Program-made: the position numbers and the translations under genes
In this document: positions 1 through 57,893 of the stretch, one piece after another
Layout of the letters: every line of letters starts with the position of its first letter
Position numbering within the stretch: position 1 is the first letter of the stretch
NCBI GenBank assembly: GCA_009914755.4
Contig: CP086569.2
Span: 8,064,001-8,128,000 of the forward strand
Direction of reading: 5' to 3'
Origin: the human T2T-CHM13v2.0 reference genome, Homo sapiens
Length of the DNA stretch: 64,000 bases
The notes under the pieces: model-generated
Database searches by the model: none
Told to the model about the DNA's origin: nothing
What the model saw: only the letters and a program-made list of their open reading frames with translations

Positions 1-3712
<3,712 letters not shown>

Positions 3713-10692: not shown

Positions 10693-11720
<1,028 letters not shown>

Positions 11721-16749: not shown

Positions 16750-17879
<1,130 letters not shown>

Positions 17880-19089
17880 AAAAATGAGGAGATTCACATA
17901 TCCTGAGTGCTGGGCTCAGTAATGTGCCAAAATCCTCCTATTGTGAATGCCCAGGCAGAAAAACAGAATCACATCACTTAGGTCATGAGCTCAGACATTT
18001 GTCCCAATGTCCCCAGTAGGCAGGGTTCAGGCACACAAGGAGGGTCATATCACCTGTGTGCTTCCCTAGAAATATGTCATAATGTAAAATGTGGGCAGAA
18101 ATTAGGCAGAAGAGCCACATCGCCAGAATGATGGGTTCTGAGATATTTCACAAGGCTCTCTTAGGACAGCACCCAGCAAAGATAGTTACATCACCTAGGT
18201 GCAGGTTCTCTGTTTATGCTACAATTCTCCATGTGGCCTCCATGTGCATAGGACCCAAGGAGGGAGTCACTTCACCTAGGGGATAGGCCCAGAGATATGT
18301 CGCAATGACCTCTATGAAGCATAGCCCTAGCAAAAGAGTACTATCACCTGTGTGCCTGGCCTAAAATATGTCACTGTCAAGGTTGGCAGGGCCCAAGCAG
18401 GAAAGCCACATAACCTAGGTGATAAACCCAGAGATATGTCACAATGCCCTTTTGTGGGCATGGCTCTGGCAAAATAGTACCTTCCCCAGTGTACCTGGTC
18501 TTGCAGTGTGTCACTGTCATTCCTTTTTGCAGGGCTCATTCCAGAGAAGAGAGTTACATAACTTATGAGGTGGACACAGAAATATGTTGCAATAAGTTTG
18601 GTGTGCCTGGCACAGGAAAGAATGTAACATCACCTTGGTGTTAGATCCAGTGATATGTCACAATCTTTACTGAAAGAAGTGCCCAGGCAGCAGAGTCACA
18701 TCACCTGTAGGTTGGCCTACATAGATATGATAATCCCATATATACACTGGAAAAAGCCTGGAGAGTCAAATTAAACAGGTGCTTGGCAAAGATTTATATT
18801 ACAATCACATTGTCAGAAAATTCCAAGGGTGAGATTTACAATGCCACACATGTCCTGTTTTCATATATGACAGTTGGTTTTATCCATATGAGATGATGAT
18901 AGTTCTTACTGTCAGCTGGTTGTGCATACCAGATTCACAATTTCTACTGTGTCCTGAGCCGTGTTTTGACTCTGTCTGTATAACCTAAAGACTTTATAAA
19001 ATATGTGTGCTTGTTGTAATTTTTTGTAAACTTTGTACAAGAAAGAGATTCAGGACATTTGGGATCCCTAAAATTAGTTATTAAACTAG

Positions 19090-35800: not shown

Positions 35801-37908
35801 AATCCAAAAAGTCACAACACCTGGGTACTAGGCCAAAACCTTTTGTCTCTGATGTTGACACCATTAAATATAAGCTGGGTGTGTATAACAGAGCCACACT
35901 TTTGCATGTTTCCTACCTTTTTTTATGACACTCTACAACATTTGAAGGCTTTATACAGCATCCATGAGAGTGGCAAACCACTCTGACCCCTACTTGCTAG
36001 TATGGATTCACGATCTTACACATTGCCCTAAAACCCAGGTTTTATGTCTTCTGTAGGCTGGATTAAGGATGAGATCCATTATTACTTTTGTGAGCTGGAT
36101 GTAAAAATGGGTCACCATCCCACCTGTGGTGAGATACACATAGGAAGGTCAAATTCCAACTTTGTACTGTAGTTACTTTTTGGAATCAGGACCTTAACAG
36201 TGGGCTTTGGCCATGTGGGATGGAAACATTTGCTTTCATTTAGGTGCATAATCAAGAATCCCAATCTGAACATTTTGCTGGTCCTTGTCTTGAAACTCTC
36301 TGCATCTCCCAAGGAAGGTGTTATAAGTAAGTGTTTTAATGTTCTGTAAGCTTTGTACAAATATGCAACCGAGGACCTTTCATATTGCCCTGAGCCTAGT
36401 GACGAAAGGCAAAATATCTCCTATTGGTTGAATTTCAATATAAGTTTGACCATCATGCCTGTGATCTCAAGTAATGTGTATGTCACAGTCCCATTTGTGA
36501 GCAAAAACTATGCAGCAGGGTAACATCTCTTTGGTGCTGTGCCAAGCAACATGTCACAATACCCTCCCTAGGCAGGGTACAGGAATTAGAGTCACATTAA
36601 ATTGGTGCTGGACTCAGCAATACAAAACCATCTTACCTGTGAAAGAGACCCAGCCAAAAGATAAGAATCAGAACACCTACATGATGGGCCCAGGACATGT
36701 CAAAATACGTTCCGTGGCTCCAGGACAGTCATGAGTCATGATATAATGTCCTCCTCTGGACAGTAAATTAACAGGGTTTGGCCCCAGCAATATACCATAC
36801 CTCTCTGTGTTTGCAGGACTTAGGCAAAAGAGGAACGTAACCTGGGTGCTGGGCCCTGCAATAGGCCAACAATTCTGATTGTGGGAATGGTTTCAGAAAA
36901 TAAGGAGAGTCAAACAACCTGAGTTCTGGGCTCTGCAATCCATTCATTGTAAAAATCAGACAGAAGATGAGTCACTTCACTTTAGTCTTGGGCTCAGAGA
37001 TATATCCCAATGTTCCCAGTATGCAGGTCCCATGAAGAAAAGGACAGTCATATCACTTAGGTGCTTCCGTAGTTGTATGTCACAATCTAACATGTGGGCA
37101 GAAACCAGGCAGAAGAGCCACACCACCTGGGTATGGCCTCAAGCAATATGTCACCATGCCCAATGTAGACAGTTTGCAGAAAATAAAGAAAATCACACCA
37201 CCTGGGTGCTGGGCTCAGAAATATGTAATAATTTCCTTTATTGGTACAATTCAGGACAAAGAGAACATTAATGTCACCTAGGTTTTGCACTCAGTTCAGG
37301 ACAAAGAGAACATTAATGTCACCAAGTTTTGCACTCACAATTTCTTCAGTGGACAGGATCCAGGCAGGAGAGCAGAGTCACCTTAGCTATATGCTATATC
37401 TAGCAATATGTTACAGAGTTCCCTATGGAAAAGGCACTGACAGGAGAGACATCTTACCTAGCCAACAGGCACAGAGATATGTGAAAATATCCCCTGTTTG
37501 CAGAGCCCAGGCAGAAGAGTCACAGTATTATGTTCTGATCCATTGATATGTAACATGCCCTTCTGGAAAATAATTTGAACCAAAAAGTCTCAACACTGGG
37601 GTACCAGGTCAAGGATATGACACAATCTCCTCAACTTTAAGGGTGACACCATTAACTGTTACCTAGTTGTGCATATGTCAGTCACAAACTCACGTGGGTG
37701 CTGGCCATTGTGTGACACTCTATACAACCTCTGAGAACTTTAAACAACATCCATGAGAGTTGAAAACTCACTGAGGCCTACATGCTTATATGGACTCATG
37801 ATCTTACATATTTCACTAAGCTCAGATATGACAGTCAACATCTCTCTTACACATGCTGGCTTCAGGGAGGAGACCATTATTAGCCCTGTGAGCTGGGTCC
37901 AGAATTGA

Positions 37909-38335
<427 letters not shown>

Positions 38336-41300
38336 GGTAATAACTTTTACTTTCACCTGAATGTGTTGTGGAGAGTCACAATACTAATATTTTTCTGGAC
38401 CCTCTTATGAAATTGTCTGTACCACCCAAGAAGGTTTTGTAATATAAGTTAGTGTTGTAAAATTCTGTAAGCTTGTTCAACTAAGCAATGAAGGACTTTA
38501 CCTACTGACCTAAACCTAGTGGTGAAAGGCAAAATATATCCAATTGGCTGAATCCCAATAGAAGCATGATCGTCATGCTTTTGAACTGAAGAAATGTATA
38601 TGTCATAACAATTTGTGGACAAAAATCTAGACAGAAGGTTGACATCACTTAGGTGCTACGGCAAGAAACATGATACAATACCTTGTGTAGGGGGGTCATA
38701 GGAAACAGGGTCACATTAACTGGGCTCTGGAGCCAGCAATATGGCACAACCTCACATGGAAGAAATCTAGCAAAGTGAGGAGACCCAAAACACATATGGA
38801 GTGGGCCAAAGATATATAAAAATAGCTTCTGTGGCTCTGGCACAGGCAGGAGAGTCACATCATTAGCATGCTAGGCCCAGCAATATGCTGAAATTCCTTC
38901 TTTATGCATGGCCCATGCATAAGTGTAACATAATCCAGGTGGGGGGACCTGAACTACAGCAAAATTCCTGTTTGTGAGCATTGTTTGGCAACATGATGAG
39001 AGTCACGTTTCCTAAGTACTGGACTCATCAGCATGTCACAATCTTCCCATTGTAAAAGCTTAGACAGAATAAGAAACTCACATCACTTAGGCCATGGGGT
39101 CAAAGATATGACCCAATAACACAAGTAGGCAGTGCTCAGGCGGAAATAGACAGTCATAACACCTAGATGCTTTTTTAGGTATATGTCACAATTTCATCCA
39201 TGTCCAGTCCTTTCATTCAGTTCTTTCTTTCTATCAGCTGGGTGTGCATACAAGACTCACAATTTCACCTGTATGCTGAGCCCTTCTTTGATTCTGCATG
39301 TATAACCCAAAGACTGTAAAATATGTGTGAGTGTTGTAATATTTTGTGACCTTTGTAGAAGAAGGTGATATGGGATATCACACATGTCCCTAAATGTAGT
39401 TATAATAGTCAAAATATCCTCTATTGTCTGAGTACACATGTAAGAGTCATTATCATTTCTGAGAGCCATGCCTAGGTATCAGTTACAACATTCTCTGTGG
39501 TTATAAAGCAGGCTGAATAGTCATATCGCCTAAATTCTGGACCAAACATATTCCAATATTCTCTTTGGAGGCAGGGTCGTGTCAGAAATGTCACATAACT
39601 TGTGTGCTAGATACAGCTCTGTGGCACAATGTTATTTGCGGGCAGTGTCCAGGCAGAAGAGGAGAGTCATATCACCTAAATGTTGAGCCCCAAAATATGT
39701 CACAATGTCTCCTATTGGCAGGACACAGACAAAATTGTCATATCATTTGGATATAGTGTTTAGAAATGCTACAATTACCAAAGCGAGCTGGGTACAGGCA
39801 GGAGAGGGGAGCCATGTAACCTAGGTGATGTGTCCAGAAATATGTTACAAAATCCCCTGAGGACATTGTTAAGATAGCAAGAGTCAAATCACCAAGGTGC
39901 TTGACCCAGGTGTTTGTCAAGATCTCATTTGTGGGTGATACCTAGGCAGAATTATTAAATCTCTCAGGAGCTGGGCAAAGGTACATGTCACAATTACACC
40001 TGTGGAAAAGTTTAAGAGTCACCATACTGCACATGTCTTGGCTCCAGGCGTATTAGCTGTTATTAGGCTTTTGTTATGGTCTCAGGTATATGGCACAATA
40101 TCACCTCTGGTCAGAGAGAATGCAAGAAAGTCACATCACCTACATGGGTGTGGCTCCATTGAGATATCACAATCCACCCTGTGGGCAGAACCTTGGCAGA
40201 AAAGTCACATCACCTGGCTGCTGGTTTGAGTGACATCAAAGCCCCATTGTGAACATGACTTTGGAAAGAGGGGAGACTCAGTTAACCTAGGCAATTGACC
40301 TAGGTATATGTCACAATGGCCCTTATGTGCAGTACCAAGGCTGGAGAGTGACCTCACATTGGCCCGTTGGTTCAGCAATATGTCACAATCGGCCTGTGGT
40401 GAGGGCACAGGCAAAAGTGAAGAAATATCACCTTAGGTTCTGAGCTGAGTGATATGTTACAATGCTTCCTGCTAGAAGAATGCAAAAAAGAGTATCTCAA
40501 CACCTGGATGAAGTGCCCAGTTAAGTGTCACAATTCACTGTAACTGAAGGGCCAAGGCAGTACAAAGGAGTCACATCACTTATGTGATGGACCTAGATAT
40601 AGGACACAATTTTCTTTGTAGTCAGGCTTCAGGCAGATAATTTACATCACCTTGGTGATGGTACCAGTAATATATAAAAGTACCCTTTTTAGGCAGACTC
40701 AAGGAACATGTTATATATTGCTTAGGTGCCTGTTCCACATATGGCACAATTTCATTGTGGTCTGAGCCTAGAAAAGAGAGTCAGATTATTTATGTGCTGG
40801 GCAAAGTTACCTGCCCCAATCACATGCTAAGAAAGGTTCAGAAATAATTTTCACAACCCACACAAGTCCTGGTTTCATGTATGTGAATCAATCCTGTCTA
40901 TGACTTAGGCCAAAGTAGAGGAGTCACAATCTGAACAATGGGCAAGATCCATGTATAAGAGCCCCAATGACTTATTGTGTCAATGAGATTGTGTCATATC
41001 ACTGGGCTTAGTAGCCCATTGTTAGAACTTTTGTTTAAATTGTTTCCCATGTGTGCATTATAACACTCTTCTGCCTGGGTACTGCAAACAAGAAATATTG
41101 TCACATGTCTCTGAGCCTATCTGCTAGGTGATTTGTCTGTTTTAGCTGTGCTTTGCTCCCAGGGAACATTGTGACATCTTTTAATGTGGCACCTAGGAAA
41201 TGTGACTTCTCTTTTCTGCCTAGGTCCTGTGCACTAAAGAAATATGTACATAGTGCTGAATGCAAAACTTAAATAATGCAACTCTCCTCTTTTTTTCTGG

Positions 41301-42768: not shown

Positions 42769-45700
42769 TTGGAGGTTGTAGCATTTTTAAGCACTGCATG
42801 CAAATGACATGACTCTCTTTCCTCATCCTTTCAAGCAACTTTTCTTCCCGGAAATTGCCTACAAGGAGAATATTTGAAAATTCCTGATTCAGCATGTAGG
42901 TGTCTTGGCTATCACACCTGTTTCATTACCACAGAGAAAACTGACATATAACTAGGCACAACTCATAGGCATAATAATGACTCATACCTCACAAATAGGA
43001 GTAATTTTTGACTCTCGTTATGGGCTTTAGAAATATAAGTGATTAATACTCTCAGCTAAAAAAAAAAAGGTCTGAGATTATAATGGCCTCAGAAATTTTA
43101 TAAAGCCTTTGGCTTGTGCAGAGAGTTTAATGACAGAACACAGAAGAAAGATAAAATTCTGAGTCTCATACACACATCCAGCTGATAGTAAAGACCGTCA
43201 CCATCTCATATATATGAAGCCAGATGTCACTACTGAAAACAAGATATGTGCGGTATTGTAAATCTTATCCAGGAAATTTTCTGCCAGTGTGGCTGTGACA
43301 TAAATATTTGCCAAGCACCTCTGTGATTTGACTCTCCAGACTGGTTTCATCCCACATATGTTATTGTGATATGTACCTAGGCCAACCTCTAGGTGAGGTA
43401 ATTCTCCTGCCTGGGCCTTGCTGTCAGTGAGAATCATAACATATCAGTAGATTCAGCACCCTAGTCATGTTATGTTTTTGCCTGAGCCCTGCCTACAGAA
43501 ATCACTGTGACATATCACTAGGTCAACAACTTACGTGATGTAAGTCTCCTCATTTTAATGGGCCCTGTGCATTGTGGGGGATAGTGACATATGGCTGGGC
43601 TAGAAACAAAGCTGATGGTACTCTTTTGTGAGGGCCATGTCCTAAAAAGGGCATTATGACAAATCTCTGGGTCTTCACCTAGGTGATTTTGCTCTCCTAC
43701 TTGGGTCATGTTTACCTGTATAGTGACATGTTGCTAGGCTAAGTACAAATGTAATGCTACACTTTCACCAGGGCCATGCTTCAGGGGGACATTGTGACAT
43801 ATCTCTGGGCCTATCACTTAGGTGATATGACTCCCTGCTTGGGTCCTGCCCACATAGAGCATTGAAACATAAGGGCAAAAACTGCACCAGTTTGCTGTCT
43901 CTTGCTTGGGTCCTGTCCTAAGGGAGCCTTGTGACATAGCTCAGGATCCAGCATCAAGGTGATGTGGCTCTTTTGCCTGTTTTCACCTAACATGTAAGAT
44001 TGTGTCATGTATCTAGGGAAGCAACTACCTGATATGTGATATGAGTCTTCTGTTCTGTTTGAGCCCTGCCTACTTGGGATATTTGGCCATATATCTGAGC
44101 TCATGTCCTAAGTGATGTGACCCTGTTTTTCCACCAGAGACTTTATAATGGGTTAATGTGAACTATTTCTAAGTCCAATACTTAGATAATATAACTCTTC
44201 ATTTTTTCCTGAACTTTTCCCTAAGAAGAGGAATTGTGACATATTACTGGGCTGAGCACACAGATGATGCTTCTCTGCTGCCTGGGTCATTCATAAAGAG
44301 AGAATTATGGCATATATTTGGGCCCCCAACCCTGATGATGTAAGTCTCCTGCCTGTGACATAGCAACAGAAAGTATTTTAACATACCTTGGGCCCATGTT
44401 GTAGGTGTGTTTGCTCTCATCATTTGTCTATTTTTCTTCCAAATTTGGGATTGTGTTATATTGCTGGTTCCAGCAGCCCAGTTAATGTAACCTTCATTTC
44501 TACATCCTGCTTAGAGGGCATTGTGACATATTGCTTGGCAGAACACCTAAGTTGTGCTACCCTCTTGCCAAGTTTTTTCCTACAAATTGGATTATTAAAT
44601 TTACATTGCTTCTATTCAGAGGGATGATGATCAAATTTAAATTGTGATTACACCAATAGTTCATATTTTGCCTCTCGTCGCTATGTATATGGCAATAGGT
44701 AATGTTATGAGTTGTATATTTGTACAAAACTTAGAGAATGTTACAACTCTAACTCAGATTCTATAAACTTACTGGGTGGTACACAGAGTTTTATAACAGG
44801 GTCCAGCAAAAGATTAAGATTGTGATTCTTGATTACATATGCAGATGAGAACAAATGTTGTCATCATCCCACATTTACAAAAGCCACTGTTGAATTCCTG
44901 AATCTAACAAGTAAATAAGGTACAAAGATGGAATTTTGACTTTCATATGTGGATCTTGCTACAGATGAGATGGTGACTTATTTCTGGACACAGATCACAG
45001 GCATAATAATGAGTCTCCCATCTCAACCCAGCCTATAAGGGAGATGTTGACTCATAGCTGGGTTTAAAGCAATATATAAGATTGTGAGTCACTATGAGCA
45101 TGTATGCCTCAGAGTGGATTGCTACTCTTATGTATGTTGCATAAAGCTTTCCAATGTTGTAGAATGTGTCATACGGTGAGCCAGAAAACACATGAGATTG
45201 TCACTCTCATATACACATCAAGCTAGAAGTTAAAGATGTCACACTAAAAAATGAAGAGATTGTGTCCTATCTCTAGGCCTAGTACTCCTAGGCGTTGAGA
45301 ATTTTTTGCTTAAATTCTCTTTTTTTTTTTTTTTACTGAAAATATTATGTTTATTTATTTATTTATTTATTAGTATTATTATACTTTAAGTTTTAGGGTA
45401 CATGTGCACAATGTGCAGGTTAGTTACATATGTATACATGTGCCATGCTGGTGTGATGCACCCATTAACTCATCATTTAGCAGTAGGTATATCTCCTAAT
45501 GCTATCCCTCCCTCCTCCGTCCACCCCACAACACTCCCCAGAGTGTGATGTTCCCCTTTCTATGTCCATGTGTTCTCACTGTTCAATTCCCACCTATGAG
45601 TGAGAATATGCAATGTTTGGTTTTTTGTCCTTGTGATACTTTACTGAGAATAATGATTTCCAATTTCATCCATGTCCCTACAAAGGACATGAACTCATAA

Positions 45701-46526
45701 TTTTTATATGGCTGCATAGTATTCCATGGTATATATGTGCCACATTTTCTTAATCCAGTCTATCAGTGTTGGACATTTGGGTTGGTTCCAAGTCTTTGCT
45801 ATTGTGAATAGTGCCGCAATAAACATATGTGTTCATGTGTCTTTATAGCAGCATGATTTATAGTCCTTTGGGTATATACCCAGTAATGGGATGGCTGGGT
45901 CAAATGATATTTCAAGTTCTAGATCCCTGAGGAATCGCCACACTGACTTCCACAGTGGTTGAACTGGTTTACAGTCCCACCAACAGTGTAAAAGTGTTCC
46001 AATTTCTCTACATCCTCTCCAGCACCTGTTGTTTCCTGATTTTTTAGTAATTGCCATTCTAACTGTGTGAGATGGTATCTCATTGTGGTTTTGATTTGCA
46101 TTTCTCTGATGGTCAGTGATGGTGAGCATTTTTTCATGTGTTTTTTGGCTGCATAAATGTCTTCTTTTGAGAAGTGTCTGTTCATGTCCCTCACCCACAT
46201 TTTGATGGGTTTGTTTGTTTTTTTCTTGTAAATTTGAGTTCATTGTAGATTCTGGATATTAGCCCTTTGTCAGACGAGTAGGTTACAAAAATTTTCTCCC
46301 ATTCTGTAGGTTGCCTGTTCACTCTGATGGTAGTTTCTTTTGCTGTGCAGAAGCTCGTTAGTTTAACTAGATCCCATTTGTCAATTTTGGCTTTTGTTGT
46401 CATTGCTTTTGGTGTTTTAGACATGAAGTCCTTGCCCATGACTATGTCCTGAATGGTAATGCCTAGGTTTTCTTCTAGGGTTTTTATAGTTTTACATCTA
46501 ACATTTAAGACTTTAATCCATCTTTA

Positions 46527-46709
<183 letters not shown>

Positions 46710-46712
46710 CTA

Positions 46713-46820
<108 letters not shown>

Positions 46821-46937
46821 TTAGGATTGACTTGGAGATGTAGGCTCTTTTTTGGTTCCATATGAACTTTAAAGTAGTTTTTGCAATTCTGTGAAGAAAG
46901 TCATTGGTAGCTTGATGGGGAGGGCATTGAATCTTTA

Positions 46938-47977
<1,040 letters not shown>

Positions 47978-48835
47978 TCAGTCCTGTCCTGGACTCTTTT
48001 TGGTTGGTAAGCTATTGATTATGGCCAAAATTTCAGATCCTGTTATTGGTCTATTCAGAGATTCAATTTCTTCCTGGTTTAGTCTTGGGAGGGTGTATGT
48101 GTCGAGAAATTTATCTATTTCTTCTAGATTTTCTAGTTTATTTACGTAGAGGTGTTTGTAGTATTCTCTGGTGGTAGCTTGTATTTCTGTGGGATCGGTG
48201 GTGATATCCCCTTTATTATTTTTTATTGCGTCTATTTGATTCTTCTCTCTTTTTTTCTTTATTAGTCTTGCTAGCGGTCTATCAATTTTGTTGATCCTTT
48301 CAAAAAACCAGCTCCTGGTTTCATTAATTTTTTGAAGGGTTTTTAGTGTCTCTGTTTCCTTCAGTTATGCTCTGATTTTAGTTATTTCTTGCCTTCTGCT
48401 AGATTTTGAATGTGTTTGCTCTTGCTTCTCTAGTTCTTTTAATTGTGATGTTAGGATGTCAATTTTGGATCTTTCCTGCTTTCTCTTGTGGGCATTTAGT
48501 GCTATAAATTTCTCTCTACATACTGGTTTGAATGTGTCCCAGAGATTCTTGTATGTTGTGTCTTTGTTCTCGTTGGTTTCAAAGAACATCTTTATTTCTG
48601 CCTTCATTTCATTATTTACCCAGTAGTAATTCAGGAGCAGGTTGTTCAGTTTCCATGTAGTTTGGCGGTTTTGAGTGAGTTTCTTAATCCTGATTTCCAG
48701 TTTGATTGCACTGTGGTCTGAGAGATAGTTTGTTGTAATTTCTGATCTTTTACATTTGCTGAGGAGAGCTTCACTTCCAACTATGTGGTCAATTTTGGAA
48801 TAGGTGTGGTGTGGTGTTGAAAAGAATGTATCTGT

Positions 48836-48935
48836 CTAATGTTGACAGTGGGATGATGACAGTGGGGTGTTGACAGTGGGGTGTTCACAGTGAGGTGTTA
48901 AACAGAGGGGTGTTGACAGTGGGGTGTTAAAGTCT
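48836..48935. repeat. 14-bp tandem expansion (tgacagtggggtgt)x~6 inside the L1 ORF2 endonuclease-coding region
   Basis: Consensus L1 reads …ctaatgttgacagtggggtgttaaagtctccc…. Here it reads ctaatgttgacagtgggatgatgacagtggggtgttgacagtggggtgttcacagtgaggtgttaaacagaggggtgttgacagtggggtgttaaagtctccc. Confidence 0.7.
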
Positions 48936-49814
48936 CCCATTATTATTGTGTGGGAGTCTAAGTCTGTTTGTAGATCACTCAGGACTTGCTTTGTGAATCT
49001 GGGTGCTCCTGTATTGGGTGCATATATATTTAGGATAGTTAGCTCTTCTTGTTGAATTGATGACTTTACCATTATGTAATGGCCTTCTTTGTCTCTTTTT
49101 ATCTTTGTTGGTTTAAAGTCTGTTTTATCAGAGACTAGGATTGCAACCCCTGCCCTTTTTTGTTTCCATTTGCTGGTAGATCTTCCTCCATCCTTTTATT
49201 TTGAGCCTGTGTGTCTCTGCATGTGAGATGGGTTTCCTGAATACAGCACACTGATGGGTCTTGACTCTGTGTCCAATTTGCCTGTCTGTGTCATTTAATT
49301 GGAGCATTTAGTCCTTTTACATTTAAAGTTAGTATTGTTATGTGTGAATTGATCCTGTCGTTGTGATGTTAGCTGGTTATTTTGTTCGTTAGTTGATGCA
49401 GTTTCTTCCCAGACTTGATGTCGTTACAATTTGGCATGATTTTGCAGTGGTTGGTACTGGTTGTTCCTTTCCATGTTTAGTGCTTCCTTCAGGAGCTCTT
49501 TTAGGGGAGGCCTGGTGGTGACAAAATCTCTCAGCATTTGCTTGTCTGTAAAGTATTTTATTTCTCCTTCACTTATGAAGCTTAGTTTGGCTGGATATGA
49601 AATTCTGGGTTGAAAATTCTTTTCTTTAAAAATGTTGAATATTGGTCCCCACTCTCTTCTGCCTTGTAGAGTTTCTGCTGAGAAATCCACTGTTTTTACT
49701 ATACTGCATAGGTCATACAGAAAAAGAAAATTATAGCATATAGCTGCACCCAGCTCCCTAATGATATGACTCTTCTGCCTATGCCAGAGCCACAGAAGGT
49801 ATTTTGACACATCC

Positions 49815-50502
49815 ATTGTTTAGATGAATGTATAACTAGAATAACCAATGCAGAGACCTCCTTAAAGGAGCTGGTGAAGCTGAAAGCCAAGGCTCGAGAA
49901 CTGCGTGAAGAATGCAGAAGCCTCAGGAGCCGATGCAATCAACTGGAAGAAAGAATGTCAATGATGGAAGATGAAACGAATGAAATGAAGCAGGAAGGGA
50001 AGTTTAGAGAAAAAAGAATAAAAAGAAAGGAGCAAAACCTCCAAGAAATATGGGACTATGTGAAAAGACCAACTCTACGTCTGATTGGTGTACCTGAAAG
50101 TGACGGGGAGAATGGAACCAAGTTGGAAAACACTCTGCAGGATATTATCCAGGAGAACTTCCCCAACCTAGAAAGGCAGGCCAACATTCAAATTCAGGAA
50201 ATACAGAGAACACCACAAAGATACTCCTCCAGAAGAGCAACTCCAAGACACATAATTGTCAGATTCACCAAAGTTGAAATGAAGGAAAAAATGTTAAGGG
50301 CAGCCAGAGAGAAAGGTCGGGTTACCCACAAAGGGAAGCCCATCAGACTAACAGCGGATCTCTCAGCAGAAACTCTACAAGCCAGAAGAGAGTGGGGGCC
50401 AATATTTAACATTCTTAAAGAAATGAATTTTCAACCCAGAATTTCAGATCCAGCCAAACTAAGCTTCATAGGTGAAGGAGAAATAAAATACTTTACAGAC
50501 AC
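49815..50502 (+). mobile_element. Inverted L1 ORF1 segment (codons ~95-300) forming the 5' end of the complex L1 insertion. It overlaps by ~45 codons with the ORF1 portion present in the minus-strand body.
   Basis: tttagatgaatgtataactagaataaccaatgcagagacctccttaaaggagctggtgaagctgaaagccaaggctcgagaactgcgtgaagaatgcagaagcc matches the L1 ORF1 coiled-coil region. The match ends at …gaaataaaatactttacagaca. Both this segment and the minus segment encode SAETLQ.RREWGPIFNI.KE.NFQPRIS.PAKLSFI.EGEIKYFTD. Confidence 0.8.
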
Positions 50503-53500
50503 GCTTAAATTCTTTACCATGGGTGCGTTGTGAGGCATCGCTGGGTTAGAGTGATAAAAAGATGACTCTTGCTTGGACCCCAGCACCATGGGATATTACC
50601 ACATATCTCTGGGCCTATCAGGTAGGTGATGTGTCTCTCCTCCCAATGTCATATCCACAGGGGACACTGTGACATATTGCTGGATATAGCATCTAGATAA
50701 TGTGAATCTCCTCTGCTGCCTGGATCCTGCCCACTGAACAATTTGTGACTACCAATGAGTATAAAACCTAGGTGATGTGACTCTAACTTTGTTCTGTACT
50801 CTGTCATGAGAGGGAATTATAACATATTGCTGAGCATGGCACCTAGGGGTGTGACTATCCACTATTTTTTCAACGATGTATACAGTGGGCATGATGACAT
50901 ATTATTGGAGATTGTACCCAGGTGATATGAGCCTTCTGACTGGGTTCTGCCTACAGAGGAGATTATAATGTATGCCTGGCTAAGGACCCAGATGATGTGA
51001 CTCTTCTGTCTGGTCTCTGCCCAAAGGTAAAATTGGACTTATTTGTGAAATCAGTTCATATGCACAACAATAACTTTCATAGATTGTCCAAGCCAGGGGG
51101 GATATTTTGAGTCTCATTGCTAGTCTTATGGCCATGGGTAAAGTCCTAGACTCCCACCTATGAGAATTCACAGAAAAGTGTGCTACTCAGGTATATCACA
51201 TAAAGCATGAGTGGTACAAAGAGTTTCCTGACAGGCACCAACAAACATGTGCTACTTTGAATCTTGGATGCATACCCAGCTGACACAATTTTCATTCTCA
51301 TACATAAGCTGAGCCTACAAATGAGGTACTAAGTCTCACACACATCAGCAGTCAAATCTTAAAATTGTAATTCTTATACATGAATCTGATCCACAGGTGG
51401 TTTGGTGACATTTGAACCTCGATTCAGCAAACCCGTGGTGCTTCGACTCTATTAATGGAGCACAATCTTCAAGTGGGATTGGGGCTGTTATGCATGCATC
51501 TTGCCCATTGTTGAGATTGTGACTGCTGTACTTTGATCCAACTCATAGGAGATGTTGACTCTCACACCCTAAGCCAGTACTTGTGTGTGACTGTGAAATG
51601 TATTTCTGAACATTTTTGAGTGTGTGATTAAAAAGTATAACTTTGACCAGCATCTGAATGTTTTGACTCTCCTTTCTAGGCCCAGAGCACAGTTCAAGCT
51701 GTGACATATGTGCGCCAATCACCTATGCAATATATAGCACCTTCTTTGGCAATAGGACAAAGGGCAATTTACATATCCCTGAAAGCAGCACCCAGCTGAT
51801 GTAAAATCTTGGCCTGAACCCTGCCTACAGACAGCATTGTGGCTTTTATCAAGGTCCATCATATAAGTGATGTGACTTCCTTCTACTGCCTTGGCCTTGA
51901 ACTTCTGGTGCATTGTTACACATAACTGGGTACTGCACCCATGTGATGTGACCCTTCGTTTGGTGGGGGGAGGTTGTACTAATACAAAAACTATGTAACA
52001 TATCATGTGGCTCAGCACCTAGGTGATGTTTCTTCTCTCTTGACTGAGCGCTGACCACCAGAGAGATGGTGACATATAGGTGAAACTAGCACAAGGTAAT
52101 TTCACTCTCCTGCCTTGGTCCTAAATATAGGGGCCATTGTGACATATACCCAGGCCAATTGCCCGGGTGAGGTTTGTGTCCTCTCCAGCTTAAGCCCTGC
52201 CCACAAGAGGGGTTTAGATATATGATTGAAACTAGCATCCTGATGATGGGACTCTTCTTCTAGAGGTCTGTCCACAACAAGGATTGTGACATTCAACTAG
52301 GCCAGCATCCACTCAGGTGATAAAAATTTCCTTTTTTCTCCATGTTCACAGGTTATATTGTGCCATATATGTGAGACCAGATCAAAGGCCTGATAATGAC
52401 CCTTGTACCTGAAGCCAGGATGTGCAGAATGGTGACTCTCATCCCTGAAACTTTTTATAGGTGTTATTGTGACATTTTTGTTTGCCAATCTCCTGAATGA
52501 TTTAATAATCCGACTTAGTTATAGCTGAGTTGACATTTTGACTTATGTCTGGGCAAAACCTTGATGATTTGACTCTTGTGTCTAAACTGTGTCTTCAAAA
52601 GGGATCATAACATATTGCTGGATTCATCTTCTAGGTTCTGTGTCTCTCCTCTCCTGCATGAACCTGATTCCAGTGCAGACTGTAGCATTTTTATGCACTG
52701 AATTCAAATGACACAATTCTATTGCCTGGGCCCTTTTCAACAGGAGTCATTGTGACATATCTCTGGGGCCATGGTTTAGGTAATATGACTCCACTCTCCT
52801 TCCTGGACATTCTCCACAAGGGGCATTATGCCATGGAGCTTTGCCTAGCATGCAAAGTTTGTGAATTTTCTGTTAGAGTCTTGCTTTCAAAGAGTATATT
52901 GGAATAATTCTGGATGAAAATTTAGGTGACGTGATTGTCCTGTCTGTTTAGTAAGCACAGAGGAAATGGTGACATTTACCAAGGCACAGCTAACAGCCAT
53001 GATCATGAGTCTAATATGGAGACCCAGCCAATAAGATAAAGTTGACTTTTGTCACAAGATTTTGGGACATGAGTGATGTCAATGATCTTCTTTTGGTAAA
53101 AAGCCACAAAAAATTATAACTAACACATGTATTTTGTAACACCCTTGGATACAGAGTGTCATAATGCCTAGCACACAGAGAAAATTATGAGTCTCATATG
53201 CAAACTAAATAACAGCAAGGACTTTCAACATCAAAGAGGAATGAAAGCAACTGTCCTACATAAAAAGAGGACATGTGTGGTATTGTAAATCTAATCCTTA
53301 GAATTTAATTCCATTGTGAATATGATATAAATCTTTCCCAAACACCTGTGTGATTTCACTCTTCAGATTGTTTTCAGCCTATTTATGGAATTTTGATATC
53401 TATCTGGGCCCATTTTGAAGTGATGTGACTCCTCTGCCTGGGCTCTGCTCTCAATAAGAATTATGACATCACTGGATCTAGCACCCAGGTGATGTTACAT

Positions 53501-56500
53501 TCTTGCCTCCCACAGACATCATTGTGATGTATCACTGTATCCATCACTTAGAAGAGGACGCCAGGGCCATGCCCAAAAGAGGGCATTTTGACCTATCAGA
53601 AGTCTATCATGTAGGTGATATGGCTCTTCTTGGGTCCTGCCCACTTGAATAATGATACATTGCCAGGCCGGGCACAAAGGTAACTGTACTCTTTTGCCAG
53701 GGCTATGCTTTAAAGAAGTTTTTGTGACATATCTCTGAGCCTATCACCTAGGTGATGTTACTCCCTGCTTGGCCCTGTCCAATGTAGCTCTGTGATATAA
53801 GGGTGGAACCTGCACCTAGGTGATGTAAGTATTTTGCCTGGGTCCTATTCTAAGAAGGACTTGTTTTCATCTCAGGACCCAGGACCAGTTGACATGGCTC
53901 TTGAGTCTGGTTTCCACCCACATATTAATTTGTGATATATACCAAAAGAAACACCTGTGTAATATGACTTCCTTTTTCTGCCTGAACCTTGGCTACTGGT
54001 GACATTGGGCCATATCTCTGAGCCCAGGACCTAATTGATGTGAGTCTCTACTTCTCTCTGGGCCTTTACAGTAGGAGGATTGTGACATATTGATGAGTAA
54101 AGTACTTAGGTAATGTGACGCTCATCTTGTTGCTGAATAATGCCCATGAAATGGACTTTTGTTATATTTCAGGGCCCAGCACCACATGTTGTTACTACAC
54201 CGCATAGATCATACATAAAGAGAAAATTATAGCATATAGCTGCACCCAGCTCCCTAATGATGTGACTCTTCTGCCTATGCCAGAGCCACAGAAGGAATTT
54301 TGACGTATCCATTGTTTATTCTGCAGGTTCTTTTGGCTCTCATCACTTTACTGGGTTTCTTCCATGTGTGGATGTATCGCTTTGCTTTCTCCTGCCGTCT
54401 GTTAATGTAACCCTATTTCCTAGGTCCTGCCTAAATAGAGCACTATGGCATATTGCTTGGCACAGCACCTAAGTGATGTTAATCTTCAGCCTAGTTTTTT
54501 GCCCACAAATGGGATTATGACATATACCTGTCTTCAGTTCAAAGACATGTTGATCAAGCCTATATTTGGATTCAGCCAATAGGAGATATGTTGCCTCTCA
54601 CCACTAGGTTGTTGTCAATAGGCAAGGTCCTCCATTGTATATTTGTACAAATCTCACAGAAGCTTACAACATTAACTCATATCATAAAAACTTCTTGTGT
54701 GGTACAGAAAGGTTCATAGTGGGGTCTGAAAAAGTTAAAATTGTGACTTTCATCTAGATACTCAGTTGAAAGTAAGAGTTGTTACCATCCTACATTTACA
54801 AAACATTGCTGAGGTCCTGAGTCTAAAAAGTCAATACAGAACTAAGTTGGCATTGTGACTTTCCTAAACGAATCTGGTCACGGGCAGAATGGTGAGTAAT
54901 TTCTGGACCCAGCTCACAGACATAATAGTGGTCTCATCCCTGAAACCAGCATATAGGAGAGATGTTGACTGTCATACCTGAGTTTAGGGCAATATGTAAG
55001 GTCCTGAGTCCCTACAAGCATGTAGGCCTCAGAGAGTTTTGCAACTCTGATGTATGTTGTATAAACATCTCAGGTGTTGTAAAGAGTGCCAGGCAACAAA
55101 CAGCATACACGTGAGATTGTGACTATCATACACAACTCTATAACAGTTAATGGTGTCACCCTTAATAATGAGGTGATTGTGTTACCTCCCTTGGCAAAGT
55201 AAACCAATGTTGACTTTTTGGTTAAAATTCGTTTCCGTAAGGGCTTTGCTAAATATCACTGGTCAGAATATTGATACAGTTACTCTTCTGTCTGAGTCCT
55301 GCAAACAGAGAATATTCTCATTTATCTCCAGGCCTATTGGCTAGGTGATTTATCTCTCCAGCCAGTGCCCTGCCCAAACAGGACACTGTGACATATTGAT
55401 AGATACAACATCTAGGTAATGTGAATTATCACTCCTGCCTGGATCCTGCCCACTGAAAAAATTTTGATATACCACTGAGTGCAAAACCTAAGTGACATGA
55501 CTCTTTTTTGTTTTCCTGGACCCTGCAAAGTGAGGTAATTATTATACTTTACTGATCCCAGCCCCCAATGGTGTGACTTCCTTTTTTTTTTCTTCTTTAA
55601 ACCTCTCTTCATTGGGCATGGTGACATATCACTTGAGGCAGTACCCAGATAGTGTGACTCTTCTGCCTGTTTTCTGCCCACTTCTTAGATTGGGATGCAT
55701 AATGAAGGAAGCAGCTGGGTGATATGACTCTCCTTTTCTTTCTGGGCCCTGACTACTGGGGACAGTGGGATATATCTCTGAGGCCATGATCTCAGTGAAT
55801 TGACTCTCTTCTTCTACCTGGTCTTTACAATGGGGGAGATGGTGATATATTGCTGAGCCCAGGACTCAGGTTATTTCACTCTCATTTTTCTCTTGAACCA
55901 TGGCCATAAACAGATATTTTGACATATTGCAGAGTCCAACACCTAGATAATGTTACTCTTTTACCTGGGTCATCTATATACAGAATATTATGGCATAATG
56001 CTTGGCCCAGAACCCTGATGATGTGACTTTCATGAGGATGCCAGAACACCAGAAGGTATTTTGACATACTCTGGGCCCACTATGTAGGTGTTTTGACTCT
56101 CACTTTTTGGCTTTTTATTCTTCCACATGTGGGATTGTGCTGTATTGCTGAGTTCAGCACCCAATAAATATGACTCTAATTCCTACACCCTGCCTAGAGA
56201 GGGTATTGTGACATGTTGCTTGTCACAGCACCTAAGTGATATTACCCTGTGGCATAGATTTTTTTGCCCACAAATGGGACTATGATATACACTTTACTTC
56301 AGTTTACAGGCATGATTGACAAACTTATATTTGAATTTAGCCAATAGGAGATATTTTGCCTTTCATCGCTAGGCCTAGGGAAATAGGTAAGGTCCTGGGT
56401 TGCATATTTATACCAAGCTCAAAGACCTTTACAACATTCACTCATAATGTATCATCTCCTTCAGTTATACAGAGAGTTTCATGACAGAGTCCACCAAAAG

Positions 56501-57350: not shown

Positions 57351-57502
57351 CTTCTTCTTCTTCTTTCTTCTTCTTCTTCTTCTTCTTCTTCTTCTTCTTC
57401 TTCTTCTTCTTCTTCTTCTTCTTCTTCTTCTTCTTCTTCTTCTTCTTCTTCTCCTCCTCCTTCTCCTTCTTCTTCTCCTTCTCCTTCTCCTTCTCCTTCT
57501 CC

Positions 57503-57534
<32 letters not shown>

Positions 57535-57600
57535 CTTCTTCTTCTTCTTCTTCTTCTTCTTCTTCTTCTTCTTCTTCTCCTCCTTCTTCTTTATTCTTCT
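57351..57600. repeat. (CTT)n/(GAA)n microsatellite, ~250 bp, with two nearly pure tracts of about 25-28 triplets separated by a CTC/CTCCTT-rich section. It derives from the A-tail of the adjacent Alu.
   Basis: cttcttcttc… continues from 57351. An impure section ctcctcctccttctccttcttcttctccttctcc lies at 57451-57505. A pure run follows to ~57580, then ctcctccttcttctttattcttctgtctttgtttttgttttgag leads into the Alu. The six-frame track shows poly-E, poly-S and poly-L pseudo-ORFs here. Confidence 0.9.
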
Positions 57601-57893
57601 GTCTTTGTTTTTGTTTTGAGACAGAGTCTTGCACTGTTGCTCGGGCTGGAGTGAAGAGATACAATGACAGCATACTTCAACCTCCGCCTTTAGGGGTCAT
57701 GTGATTCTCATTTATCAGGTTCCTGAGTAGTTGGCATTACAGGCACTTGCCACCAGGCCTGGCTAATTTTCTTTTTTAGTAAAGACTGTGTTTTACTATA
57801 TTGGCCAGGCTGGTCTCAAACTCTTGACTTCATGATCTGCCTGCCTTTGCTTCCCAAAATGATGCAATTACAGGTGAGAGCCACAGCACCCAG
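57601..57893 (-). mobile_element. Alu element (reverse orientation) inserted in the beta satellite, with its tail expanded into (GAA)n
   Basis: ttgttttgagacagagtcttgcactgttgctcgggctggagtg … ttcccaaaatgatgcaattacaggtgagagccacagcacccag. Flanking satellite is …cacctaggttaagtgac|c … |tggactctcctctc, with a weak TSD AGTGAC/AGTGGAC. Confidence 0.8.

What the first reader, a model, noticed from the sequence alone, without database searches (positions are those of the whole stretch)
45308..50513. Single TSD-flanked L1 insertion with an inverted ORF1 segment and a 124-bp satellite-derived filler at the inversion junction
The satellite sequence gcttaaattct is duplicated at both ends of a 5.2-kb insert, so this is one integration event. 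Inside it the L1 body (minus strand, ORF1 codon ~255 to the 3' end) is joined to an opposite-orientation ORF1 piece (codons ~95-300). That matches twin priming with a ~140-nt overlap. Between the two pieces sits 124 bp that is not L1. It is beta-satellite in the local ('-') polarity, and its closest visible match (~93%) is the homologous HOR position 3.7 kb to the right (54185-54310). The equivalent HOR position 1 kb to the left (44280-44390) matches much less well. Filler DNA at an L1 inversion junction is uncommon. It could reflect template switching by the reverse transcriptase to nearby genomic DNA, a 5' transduction from a satellite-embedded source copy, or a later gene-conversion or unequal-exchange event among HOR copies. 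The (TAAA)n-modified tail and the odd ttttcagt stub next to the poly-A at 45335-45345 could help identify the source element.
Basis: seen in the sequence. Interest (0 to 1): 0.55.

Follow-up and report, generated by a model that had tools for sequence, protein, structure and literature searches.

The report
Inverted L1 insertion with copied flanking DNA
An old L1 retrotransposon landed once in a diverged satellite array, and the join between its two oppositely oriented halves holds a 124-bp copy of satellite DNA from 3.7 kb away, a rare trace of how such insertions are stitched together.

Summary
A 5,184-bp insert lies between two copies of GCTTAAATTCT, an 11-mer that occurs nowhere else in the window. 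Six paralogous satellite blocks run unbroken across the reconstructed empty site, so this was one integration.

The insert has three parts:
- An L1 body on the minus strand (45374-49694), from ORF1 codon 250 to the 3' end, with a tail.
- A 124-bp non-L1 filler (49695-49818).
- An oppositely oriented ORF1 piece (49819-50501, codons 73-299) that abuts the right TSD.

This is twin-priming geometry, with an unusually long 152-nt stretch copied into both halves.

The filler is a same-orientation copy of 54191-54314, which lies 3,673 bp beyond the 5' side of the insertion. It is 91.9% identical to that site, while other satellite paralogs in the window reach only 74-78%. The filler-donor divergence matches the divergence between the two L1 duplicate copies, so the filler dates to the insertion. 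Each filler junction shares 4 bp with the adjoining L1 end (TGTT, TTTA; joint chance about 4e-4).

Best reading: microhomology-primed template switching onto nearby flanking DNA while the two cDNA ends were being joined. 5' transduction and later gene conversion are rejected. The array is an old, diverged satellite with a 70-71-bp period, not a homogeneous HOR. This is a variant of known L1 behaviour and of modest interest.

The parts
45308..45318 (+). Left copy of the target-site duplication GCTTAAATTCT. It is followed by a single C at 45319, where the empty site predicts T.
   Evidence: The 11-mer occurs only twice in the window; paralogous empty sites carry one copy.
45320..45334 (-). Poly(A) tail of the inserted RNA (T15 on the + strand).
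   Evidence: Read directly.
45335..45349 (-). 15-nt non-L1 stub (sense CATAATATTTTCAGT) between the (TAAA)n tract and the poly(A). Inferred to be a very short 3' transduction: cleavage 15 nt downstream of the last AATAAA of the source element's degenerate tail.
Evidence: Sequence.
45350..45373 (-). (TAAA)n-type A-rich tract (sense CTAATAAATAAATAAATAAATAAA), probably the source element's own decayed tail.
45374..49694 (-). L1 body, the non-inverted cDNA primed on the poly(A). It runs from ORF1 codon 250 through the inter-ORF spacer, ORF2 and the 3' UTR (4,321 bp).
   Evidence: ORF1p residues 250-338 in frame. RVT_1 and Exo_endo_phos_2 domains and ORF2p residues 613-822. The 5' end is mapped against an independent L1 copy, L003.
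48832..48931 (-). Internal anomaly in the endonuclease-coding part of the body. About 110 bp of L1 are replaced by about 6 tandem copies of a 14-bp unit (TGTTGACAGTGGGG).
   Evidence: TRF; alignment to the other L1 copy in the window.
49543..49694 (-). Body copy of the 152-nt L1 stretch present in both halves (ORF1 codons 250-299).
   Evidence: 143/152 identical to 50350-50501.
49691..49694 (+). Microhomology TGTT, shared by the L1 body end and the donor (54187-54190).
   Evidence: The preceding base differs (C in L1, A in the donor).
49695..49818 (+). 124-bp filler, a same-orientation copy of satellite 54191-54314.
   Evidence: 10/124 mismatches; next-best in-window paralogs 74-78%.
49819..49822 (+). 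Microhomology TTTA, shared by the donor end (54315-54318) and the start of the inverted L1 piece.
   Evidence: L1 has A before TTTA (seen in L003) and the donor has G. After it, L1 continues GA and the donor continues TT.
49819..50501 (+). Inverted L1 piece (the second cDNA), ORF1 codons 73-299, 683 bp. Its 3'-most L1 end abuts the right TSD, and it has no poly(A) of its own.
50350..50501 (+). Inverted-piece copy of the duplicated 152 nt.
50503..50513 (+). Right copy of the TSD. Base 50502 is C where L1 has A. The TSD begins with the GC that also follows in L1 (…ACAGACAAGCAAATGCT), and with a 2-nt bulge it matches 8 of 9 L1 bases there.
54187..54318 (+). Donor site in the flanking satellite, including both 4-bp microhomologies. 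It is intact in the array and lies 3,673 bp to the right of the right TSD.
   Evidence: A single 1.6-kb HSP (43631-45265 vs 53563-55182) passes through it.

Best explanation
An L1 RNA inserted once, by endonuclease-initiated target-primed reverse transcription with twin priming, into a unit of an old satellite array with a period of about 70 bp. Shown: one TSD pair, a poly(A) at the left end, and both L1 halves in the orientation and order that twin priming predicts. The + strand 3' end at the left nick primed on the poly(A) and made cDNA1, which reaches ORF1 codon 250. The 3' overhang of the other DNA end annealed inside ORF1 near codon 300, where the TSD resembles the L1 sequence, and made cDNA2 back to codon 73. 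cDNA1 ran 152 nt past that internal priming site, so this stretch is present twice. Inferred: the two cDNA 3' ends were not annealed to each other directly. One of them, most simply cDNA1 ending in ...TGTT-3', paired through 4 bp with the minus strand of the flanking satellite 3.7 kb inside the opposite (5'-side, 'reciprocal') DNA end. Long 5' resection of that end would expose exactly this strand. The end was extended for about 124 nt, came off, and re-annealed through its new ...TTTA-3' end to the 3' end of cDNA2. Fill-in synthesis and ligation then completed the insertion. The donor stayed intact, so this was copying, not transfer. The sequence cannot say whether the polymerase was ORF2p, which can copy DNA templates and jump between templates, or a host repair polymerase.
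For: Single event: the 11-bp TSD is unique in the window, and six paralogous empty sites are continuous across the junction. Twin-priming geometry: the inverted piece covers codons 73-299, its codon-299 end abuts the TSD, and the body starts at codon 250. There is GC microhomology, and 8/9 similarity with a 2-nt bulge, between the TSD and L1 at the internal priming site. Every difference between the two 152-nt copies is private to one copy, the other matching human ORF1p. Filler origin: 91.9% identity to 54191-54314 against at most 78% for every other in-window paralog. It has the same orientation as the donor, and that orientation fits the strand exposed by 5' resection of that end. The donor is uninterrupted. 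Timing: 10/124 filler-donor differences against 9/152 between the L1 duplicates, Fisher p = 0.49. Junctions: 4-bp microhomology at both ends; at least 4 bp occurs at about 2% of random junctions, jointly about 3.7e-4. Independent support for the body/filler junction: a human oral-metagenome contig is 100% identical over 49555-49801, including every filler-specific variant. Plausibility from the literature: ORF2p copies DNA templates from 5-10-nt primers and jumps between templates (PMC10830420). L1-generated break ends undergo kb-scale resection, and local genomic DNA gets incorporated at insertion junctions (bioRxiv 10.1101/2024.12.14.628481). Filler DNA is reported in twin/dual-priming variants (PMC2837659). 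Microhomologies are the rule at junctions of 5'-inverted L1s (PMC2912911).
Against: Only this 64-kb window could be searched for donors. The right half of contig L001 shows that the genome holds at least one satellite copy closer to the donor region (about 85%) than any in-window paralog, so a better donor elsewhere is not excluded. An RNA template, meaning a transcript of this array, would leave the same sequence. The published local rearrangements at L1 insertions are inversions or inverted duplications placed next to the flank, not a direct copy between two cDNAs. The 152-nt overlap is far above the reported median of 12 bp (PMC12016303), and it needs either strand displacement or a second RNA molecule. 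The filler/inverted-ORF1 junction has no independent confirmation: L001 continues into satellite there, and searches found no other contig. The first-strand nick site (TTCT/TTAC, or TCTTT/AC if 45319 was T) is only a loose match to TTTT/AA.
Confidence: 0.6

Rival explanations
1. RNA-templated filler. While copying L1 RNA, the reverse transcriptase switched to a transcript of the local satellite array, copied about 124 nt, and the product was then joined to the other cDNA. This is the same process that makes U6/L1 and other RNA/L1 chimeras.
For: ORF2p template switching between RNAs is established and explains many chimeric insertions (PMC13174262, PMC10830420). Microhomology at both junctions fits this equally well. 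That census excluded 5'-inverted L1s, so such cases would have been missed.
Against: Known RNA chimeras usually copy the partner RNA to a defined end and place it at the 5' edge next to the TSD. Here an internal 124-nt piece sits between two L1 cDNAs. Among at least 8 in-window paralogs the source is the nearest one on the 5' side of the break, only 3.7 kb away, which a cis DNA template explains more simply. There is no evidence here that the array is transcribed.
Confidence: 0.2
2. Capture of a free DNA fragment. A broken-off or excised piece of nearby satellite DNA was ligated between the two cDNA ends by end joining, with no templated synthesis.
For: Filler DNA at end-joining junctions is a known phenomenon, and it was invoked for extra sequence in twin/dual-priming loci (PMC2837659).
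Against: The donor is intact, so a fragment would have had to come from a sister chromatid or homologue. Two 4-bp microhomologies (joint chance about 3.7e-4) point to annealing-primed copying rather than blunt ligation.
Confidence: 0.07
3. Second-locus origin. Somewhere else an L1 truncated at ORF1 codon 250 sits directly against this satellite sequence, as contig L001 seems to show. A read-through transcript of that locus (satellite plus truncated L1) was retrotransposed here, so the filler is a 5' flank of the source. The inverted ORF1 piece would then come from a second, ordinary L1 RNA.
For: L001 joins the same L1 breakpoint to at least 250 bp of continuous satellite. Two RNA templates would also explain the 152-nt overlap without strand displacement.
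Against: L001 is a mosaic. It is 0/247 mismatches to the window in its core. Its left 100 bp are about 80% identical and carry different private L1 mutations. There are 6 mismatches in the last 22 bp of the filler. For an insertion this old (5.9% between duplicates), 0/247 has a probability of about 5e-7. The core is therefore this locus itself, and the flanks are best explained as low-coverage de Bruijn mis-joins through shared repeat k-mers. The unambiguous core of about 170 bp is the size of a sequencing read.
Confidence: 0.05
4. Post-insertion origin or artefact. The filler entered an ordinary twin-primed L1 later, by gene conversion, unequal exchange or a small insertion, or the window is mis-assembled at this point.
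For: Satellite arrays do undergo conversion and are hard to assemble. The right-hand junction lacks independent confirmation.
Against: Exchange between satellite units has no homology with which to act inside an L1. The filler lands exactly between the two cDNA ends, with microhomology to each. Its divergence from the donor equals the age of the L1 duplicate. The left junction is present in independent human reads.
Confidence: 0.04

Closest known systems
Twin priming, i.e. 5'-inverted L1 insertions (Ostertag & Kazazian 2001; characterised in PMC2912911 and PMC12016303)
   Same: One TSD pair. A poly(A)-primed body plus an oppositely oriented upstream L1 piece whose 3'-most end abuts the 5' TSD. 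Microhomology between the target overhang and L1 at the internal priming site. Part of the RNA copied into both cDNAs.
   Different: The two cDNAs are normally joined directly through microhomology; here 124 bp of non-L1 DNA lies between them. The overlap is 152 nt, against a reported median of 12 bp (quartiles 4-17).
Extra 'filler' sequence in variant twin/dual-priming L1 loci of primates (Meyer et al. 2010, PMC2837659)
   Same: TSD-flanked L1 insertions of the twin-priming type that carry 4-2263 bp of sequence not belonging to the candidate L1. The authors regard it as filler rather than transduction.
   Different: Those loci are defined by a 5' poly(T), and the section I read reports no origin for the extra sequence. 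Here the donor is identified, 3.7 kb away in cis, with microhomology at both ends and a matching age.
Local genomic inversions and inverted duplications at L1 insertion sites, from remodelling of resected ORF2p-generated break ends (bioRxiv 10.1101/2024.12.14.628481)
   Same: Hundreds of bp of genomic DNA from within a few kb of the target, usually on the reciprocal (non-poly(A)) end, become part of the insertion junction. Short microhomologies prime synthesis. Kb-scale 5' resection is implied.
   Different: Those pieces are inverted (self-annealing of one overhang) and lie between the L1 and the flank. Here the copy is direct, which implies priming by the other end's cDNA, and it lies between two L1 cDNAs. 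Those cases are somatic or experimental; this one is an old germline insertion.
RNA/L1 chimeric insertions made by RT template switching, such as U6/L1 (PMC13174262)
   Same: One TPRT event concatenates L1 cDNA with a copy of a second template.
   Different: In those, the partner is a defined cellular RNA at the 5' edge of the insertion. Here it is an internal piece of flanking satellite between two L1 cDNAs, and a DNA template is the simpler reading.
Microhomology-mediated templated insertions in double-strand-break repair (polymerase-theta end joining, MMBIR/FoSTeS); named from general knowledge
   Same: The donor is kept. The copy comes from nearby sequence. A few bp of microhomology mark each switch. 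The pattern is synthesis, dissociation and re-annealing.
   Different: Typical theta-mediated insertions are much shorter than 124 bp. The ends being joined here are reverse-transcribed cDNAs, and the polymerase is unknown.

Membership tests
L1 (LINE-1) insertion by endonuclease-dependent TPRT | Sequence homology to L1 ORF1p and ORF2p | tested here: met
   ORF1p structures E 5e-111. Pfam Tnp_22 trimer, RBD and dsRBD domains, RVT_1 and Exo_endo_phos_2. Human ORF2p residues 613-822, E 1e-120.
L1 (LINE-1) insertion by endonuclease-dependent TPRT | 3' poly(A) tail abutting one TSD copy | tested here: met
   T15 at 45320-45334, one base from the left TSD.
L1 (LINE-1) insertion by endonuclease-dependent TPRT | Target-site duplication flanking the whole insert, with a continuous empty site | tested here: met
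   The 11-bp TSD is unique in the window; six paralogous empty sites.
L1 (LINE-1) insertion by endonuclease-dependent TPRT | First-strand nick at a TTTT/AA-like site | tested here: inconclusive
   The reconstructed site reads ...AAATTCT/TTACC, or TCTTT/AC if 45319 was originally T. It is T-rich but not canonical.
Twin-primed (5'-inverted) L1 | The inverted piece comes from L1 sequence upstream of the body, and its 3'-most L1 end sits next to the 5' TSD | tested here: met
   Codons 73-299, with the codon-299 end at 50501 next to the TSD; the body starts at codon 250.
Twin-primed (5'-inverted) L1 | Microhomology between the target overhang and L1 at the internal priming site | tested here: met
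   A GC is shared, and the TSD matches 8 of 9 L1 bases with a 2-nt bulge.
Twin-primed (5'-inverted) L1 | Small deletion or duplication of L1 sequence at the inversion point | tested here: met
   A duplication is present, but at 152 nt it is an outlier against the reported median of 12 bp (PMC12016303).
Twin-primed (5'-inverted) L1 | The two cDNAs are joined directly at the inversion junction | tested here: not met
   124 bp of non-L1 sequence lies between them.
L1 5' transduction | The extra sequence lies immediately upstream of L1 nucleotide 1 of a full-length copy, in the sense orientation | tested here: not met
   The filler is bounded by ORF1 codon 250 on one side and codon 73 on the other.
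Microhomology-mediated templated insertion (template switch) | The donor is retained, i.e. copied rather than moved | tested here: met
   A single HSP between paralogous blocks runs through 54187-54318.
Microhomology-mediated templated insertion (template switch) | Microhomology at both switch points, beyond chance | tested here: met
   TGTT and TTTA. At least 4 bp occurs at about 2% of random junctions, jointly about 3.7e-4.
Microhomology-mediated templated insertion (template switch) | The best donor in the whole genome is the nearby site | not testable with these tools
   It is the best in the window by a wide margin, but no host genome could be searched. Scans of the available collections found nothing.
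Microhomology-mediated templated insertion (template switch) | Nature of the template (DNA or RNA) and identity of the polymerase | not testable with these tools
   The sequence outcome is the same for either template.
Beta-satellite higher-order-repeat array | Monomer periodicity near 68 bp with a recurring monomer motif | tested here: met
   Autocorrelation peaks at 70-71 bp. ATATGTCACAAT with up to 1 mismatch occurs 95 times against 0.95 expected. The name 'beta satellite' rests on my recollection of its consensus.
Beta-satellite higher-order-repeat array | Near-identical multi-monomer units repeated in tandem (an HOR) | tested here: not met
   Blocks are 68-80% identical. TRF reports no satellite array.

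The most novel reading that the evidence does not exclude
The filler is an in vivo trace of ORF2p itself jumping from L1 RNA onto resected single-stranded genomic DNA of the opposite break end, and then onto the twin-primed cDNA. That is the 'template jump to genomic DNA' step of the revised L1 insertion model, caught after landing 3.7 kb off target. It would mean that the reciprocal end is resected over kilobases during germline L1 integration while the reverse transcriptase is still engaged. It also predicts a hidden class of 5'-inverted L1s whose inversion junctions hold direct copies of 5'-flank DNA.
Probability: 0.2. Interest if true: 0.6.

Novelty: new variant of a known kind. Interest (0 to 1): 0.36.

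Why it matters
How the 5' end of a new L1 copy is attached, and which enzyme does it, is the least understood step of retrotransposition. This old insertion records the order of events unusually clearly. It preserves two cDNAs, a 152-nt double-copied stretch, and a dated, donor-identified 124-bp copy of flanking DNA with microhomology at both switches. That implies long resection of the opposite break end and at least two template switches before closure. One locus proves little by itself. It does define a simple search: look for non-L1 sequence at the inversion junctions of 5'-inverted L1s, and record the donor's distance, side and orientation. Published chimera censuses skipped this by excluding inverted elements. 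If such fillers turn out to be common, near the target and in direct orientation, they would give genome-scale evidence on how L1 insertions are resolved.

Tried and rejected
- Tandem Repeats Finder did not detect the satellite because the monomers are too diverged. I used autocorrelation, self-BLAST and a motif count instead.
- Exact-pattern scans for the filler or its junction found nothing: two scans of the bacterial/archaeal genome collection and two of JGI metagenomes, looking for host contamination.
- Exact-product look-ups of five locus-specific ORFs found nothing on record.
- A homology search with the ORF spanning the filler/inverted-ORF1 junction gave no hit.
- A homology search with the ORF spanning the body/filler junction gave one relevant contig, L001.
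  - At first L001 looked like a second locus in which the truncated L1 abuts continuous satellite. I considered a model of a read-through transcript plus a second RNA.
  - I rejected that model because L001 is a mosaic: 0/247 mismatches in the core, about 80% identity on the left with different private L1 mutations, and 6 mismatches in 22 bp on the right. That pattern fits a chimeric low-coverage assembly and does not fit any relationship dating to the insertion.
  - P0002 and its contig L002 turned out to be an unrelated L1 rearrangement.
- Rfam found no RNA family in the window.
- 5' transduction is rejected on geometry. Gene conversion or unequal exchange is rejected on position, microhomology and timing.
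- Two independent insertions are rejected: the inverted piece has no poly(A) or TSD of its own, and the flanks are contiguous in six paralogs.
- I could not assign an L1PA subfamily because no consensus library was available. ORF1p numbering uses the human sequence as I recall it, checked against PDB alignments.

Full report
**What is there**

Reading 44200-51200 shows an L1 element in antisense orientation. A T15 run sits at 45320-45334, and a sense-oriented ORF1 fragment ends at 50501/50502. The 11-mer GCTTAAATTCT occurs exactly twice in the 64-kb window, at 45308-45318 and 50503-50513, directly outside these two ends. I joined the left flank, one copy of the 11-mer and the right flank, and aligned this reconstruction to the rest of the array. 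Six paralogous blocks cross the junction without a gap, and each carries a single TTAAATT-like motif. The 5,184 bp between the repeats are therefore one insert in otherwise continuous satellite, flanked by a genuine target-site duplication.

**The two L1 pieces**

- The + strand piece (49819-50501) translates to human ORF1p residues 73-299. It matches ORF1p crystal structures at E 5e-111 and the Pfam trimerisation, RBD and dsRBD domains.
- The minus-strand body (45374-49694) begins in frame at ORF1p residue 250. It continues through the ORF1 stop, the inter-ORF spacer and ORF2 (RVT_1, endonuclease, human ORF2p residues 613-822 at E 1e-120) to the 3' UTR.
- An independent L1 copy fetched from a public contig (L003) confirms all three L1 breakpoints to the base.
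- The stretch encoding residues 250-299 is present in both pieces: 152 nt, 143 of them identical. Every amino-acid difference between the two copies is private to one copy, while the other matches human ORF1p. This is what two copies of one RNA look like after independent decay.
- The inverted piece has no poly(A). The end of it that lies furthest 3' in L1 abuts the right TSD. The TSD also resembles the L1 sequence at that point: a shared GC, and 8 of 9 bases with a 2-nt bulge.

This is the geometry of twin priming. The published surveys I read find microhomology at almost all such junctions (PMC2912911). They also find that the two cDNAs overlap in 42% of germline cases, but by a median of only 12 bp (PMC12016303). 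The 152-nt overlap here is an outlier.

**The filler**

Between the two L1 ends lie 124 bp (49695-49818) that belong to neither.

- Source: a search of the whole window finds one outstanding match, 54191-54314, in the same orientation, with 10 mismatches in 124 (91.9%).
- Position: the donor begins 3,673 bp to the right of the right TSD. That is the side opposite the poly(A).
- Not target sequence: within the array, the filler's homologous position lies about 1 kb from the homologue of the insertion point. The filler is therefore not contiguous target sequence.
- Copied, not moved: the donor is uninterrupted, since one long alignment between paralogous blocks passes through it.
- Junctions: the alignment to the donor extends 4 bp into each adjoining L1 end, TGTT at 49691-49694 and TTTA at 49819-49822. 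The bases beyond differ in both directions. In 200,000 simulated junctions between these same sequences, 4 bp or more of microhomology occurred at about 2%, so about 3.7e-4 for both junctions together.
- Timing: the filler-donor divergence (10/124) is indistinguishable from the divergence between the two L1 duplicate copies (9/152; Fisher p = 0.49). Those copies were identical when the element inserted. The filler was therefore made at about the time of insertion.

**Mechanism**

Shown: one integration, twin-priming topology, a copied and retained nearby donor, microhomology at both switches, and the same age for the filler and the insertion.

Inferred:
1. The + strand 3'-OH at the first nick primed cDNA1 on the poly(A).
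2. The staggered second nick left a minus-strand 3' overhang on the right-hand end. This overhang annealed inside ORF1 and primed cDNA2.
3. cDNA1 continued 152 nt past that priming site. This needs either displacement of cDNA2 or a second RNA molecule.
4. The right-hand end was resected 5' to 3' over more than 3.7 kb, exposing its minus strand.
5. The 3' end of cDNA1 (...TGTT) annealed there and was extended by about 124 nt in the + sense. This gives the direct orientation that is observed.
6. The extended end dissociated and re-annealed through its new TTTA end to the 3' end of cDNA2. It then copied cDNA2 to close the insertion.

The mirror-image order, with cDNA2 switching first, is equally compatible with the sequence. 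The polymerase cannot be read from the sequence. ORF2p copies DNA templates from very short primers and jumps between templates in vitro (PMC10830420). Host repair polymerases that use microhomology are the alternative.

Recent experimental and cancer-genome work supports two of these steps. L1-generated break ends are resected over kilobases, and pieces of local genomic DNA, mostly from the reciprocal end, are built into insertion junctions (bioRxiv 10.1101/2024.12.14.628481). Those pieces are inverted and lie next to the flank. The present case is a direct copy placed between the two cDNAs.

**Rivals**

- RNA template (a transcript of the array): this would leave the same sequence, and I give it about 0.2. 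The main argument against it is that the source is the nearest paralog on the 5' side of the break.
- Ligation of a free fragment: this fits poorly with the two microhomologies and the intact donor.
- 5' transduction: impossible on geometry.
- Conversion or unequal exchange among satellite units: these cannot act inside an L1.

**The L001 conflict**

The most serious challenge came from my own search. The ORF that starts in the filler and reads into the ORF1 C-terminus found a 590-bp contig from a human oral metagenome, L001. In L001 the same L1 breakpoint is followed by at least 250 bp of continuous satellite rather than by the inverted ORF1 piece.

Taken at face value, that suggests a second locus and a read-through-transcript origin for the filler. 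But L001 is a mosaic:
- It has 0 mismatches in 247 bp across the L1/filler junction, and it includes every variant that distinguishes the filler from the donor.
- Its left 100 bp are about 80% identical to the window and carry different private L1 mutations.
- It has 6 mismatches in the last 22 bp of the filler.

For an event as old as this one, 0/247 has a probability of about 5e-7. The core is therefore this locus itself, sampled from human DNA. The two flanks are best explained as low-coverage assembly joins into other repeat copies.

L001 is useful in two ways. It independently confirms the body/filler junction in human DNA. It also shows that the genome contains satellite copies closer to the donor region (about 85%) than anything in the window. 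That is why I cannot claim the local donor is the best in the genome. No public contig for the filler/inverted-ORF1 junction was found.

**Tail**

In the L1 sense, the element ends GTATAATAATA, then CTAATAAATAAATAAATAAATAAA, then CATAATATTTTCAGT, then A15. The 15-nt stub starts right after the last AATAAA of the TAAA tract. The simplest reading is inference only: the source element had a decayed (TAAA)n tail, and its transcript was cleaved and polyadenylated 15 nt into the source's flank. That would be a minimal 3' transduction, and it could identify the progenitor element.

**Context**

- The surrounding repeat is an old, diverged satellite with a period of about 70-71 bp.
- Its conserved motif ATATGTCACAAT occurs 95 times against 0.95 expected. 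Every match is on the + strand up to 40.75 kb and on the minus strand from 40.99 kb.
- Blocks are only 68-80% alike, so 'HOR' is too strong a term.
- A decayed zinc-finger array lies at about 10.7-11.6 kb.
- Together with my recollection of the beta-satellite consensus and of the beta-satellite/ZNF organisation described for human 19p12 (Eichler et al. 1998, seen only as a citation), this suggests that kind of region. I did not test it.

**Verdict**

The element is a member of the twin-priming class that fails one usual feature, direct joining of the two cDNAs, and is extreme in another, the length of the overlap.

Filler in such insertions has been reported before without a traced origin (PMC2837659). 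The largest recent chimera census excluded inverted L1s (PMC13174262). I therefore rate this a new variant of a known kind. It is an informative single example rather than a surprise.

Noticed in passing
window 16820-17762: A second 5'-inverted L1. An antisense piece (16820-17172, homologous to 46297-46649 of the main element) directly abuts a sense 3'-terminal piece with an A-rich tail (17171-17762). There is a gap of about 358 nt of L1 sequence at the inversion point and no filler. It is an ordinary twin-priming product that can serve as an internal comparison. I did not find a clear TSD.
   Followed up: partly
window 48832-48931: Inside the endonuclease-coding part of the main L1, about 110 bp of normal L1 sequence are missing. 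About 6 tandem copies of a 14-bp unit (TGTTGACAGTGGGG) occupy the spot. The unit is itself L1 sequence from the right edge of the deletion.
   Followed up: partly
window 40750-40990: The satellite array flips polarity. All 56 motif matches between 15.7 and 40.75 kb are on the + strand, and all 39 from 40.99 kb to the end are on the minus strand. Self-BLAST shows the two arms as inverted paralogs at 68-78% identity.
   Followed up: partly
window 10700-11600 (minus strand): A decayed C2H2 zinc-finger array with an 84-bp period and no long ORF. It looks like a KRAB-ZNF pseudogene next to the satellite, which suggests a ZNF-cluster/beta-satellite region.
   Followed up: partly
L001 (ENA ERZ988345, human oral metagenome contig, 590 bp): A host-contamination contig that is a three-part mosaic: another L1 copy, then 247 bp identical to window 49555-49801, then a different satellite paralog about 85% identical to 54319-54438. 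It is most likely a chimeric low-coverage assembly, and a reminder that repeat junctions in metagenome contigs can mislead.
   Followed up: yes
window 45319, 49695, 50502: At three of the four junctions of the insert, the base next to the switch point matches neither partner. 45319 is C where the empty site predicts T. 49695 is T where the donor has G and L1 has A. 50502 is C where L1 has A. These could be later substitutions, or errors and untemplated additions made when synthesis restarted from a short annealed end. The pattern was noticed after the fact and not tested statistically.
   Followed up: no
window 1 to about 4420: Another antisense L1, cut by the window start. It is 90.5% identical to 45473-48831 and then broken up, with only a further piece at 3473-3710 matching. 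It is a separate, unrelated copy.
   Followed up: no
window 19079-20684: Fragments of an older L1 in sense orientation, about 82-83% identical to the main element, embedded in the left satellite arm.
   Followed up: no
window 57351-57605: A long (CTT)n microsatellite of about 84 copies inside the right satellite arm. It creates spurious ORFs on both strands.
   Followed up: no
window 49424-49816 (minus strand): The rearrangement created a 130-codon ORF that starts at an ATG inside the filler and reads into the ORF1 dsRBD-like C-terminal domain. Nothing suggests it is expressed or functional. It was useful only as a locus-specific search handle.
   Followed up: partly
window 29773-29872 and 37250-37337: Two young two-copy tandem duplications (49-bp and 45-bp units, 94-95% identical) within the left satellite arm.
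   Followed up: no
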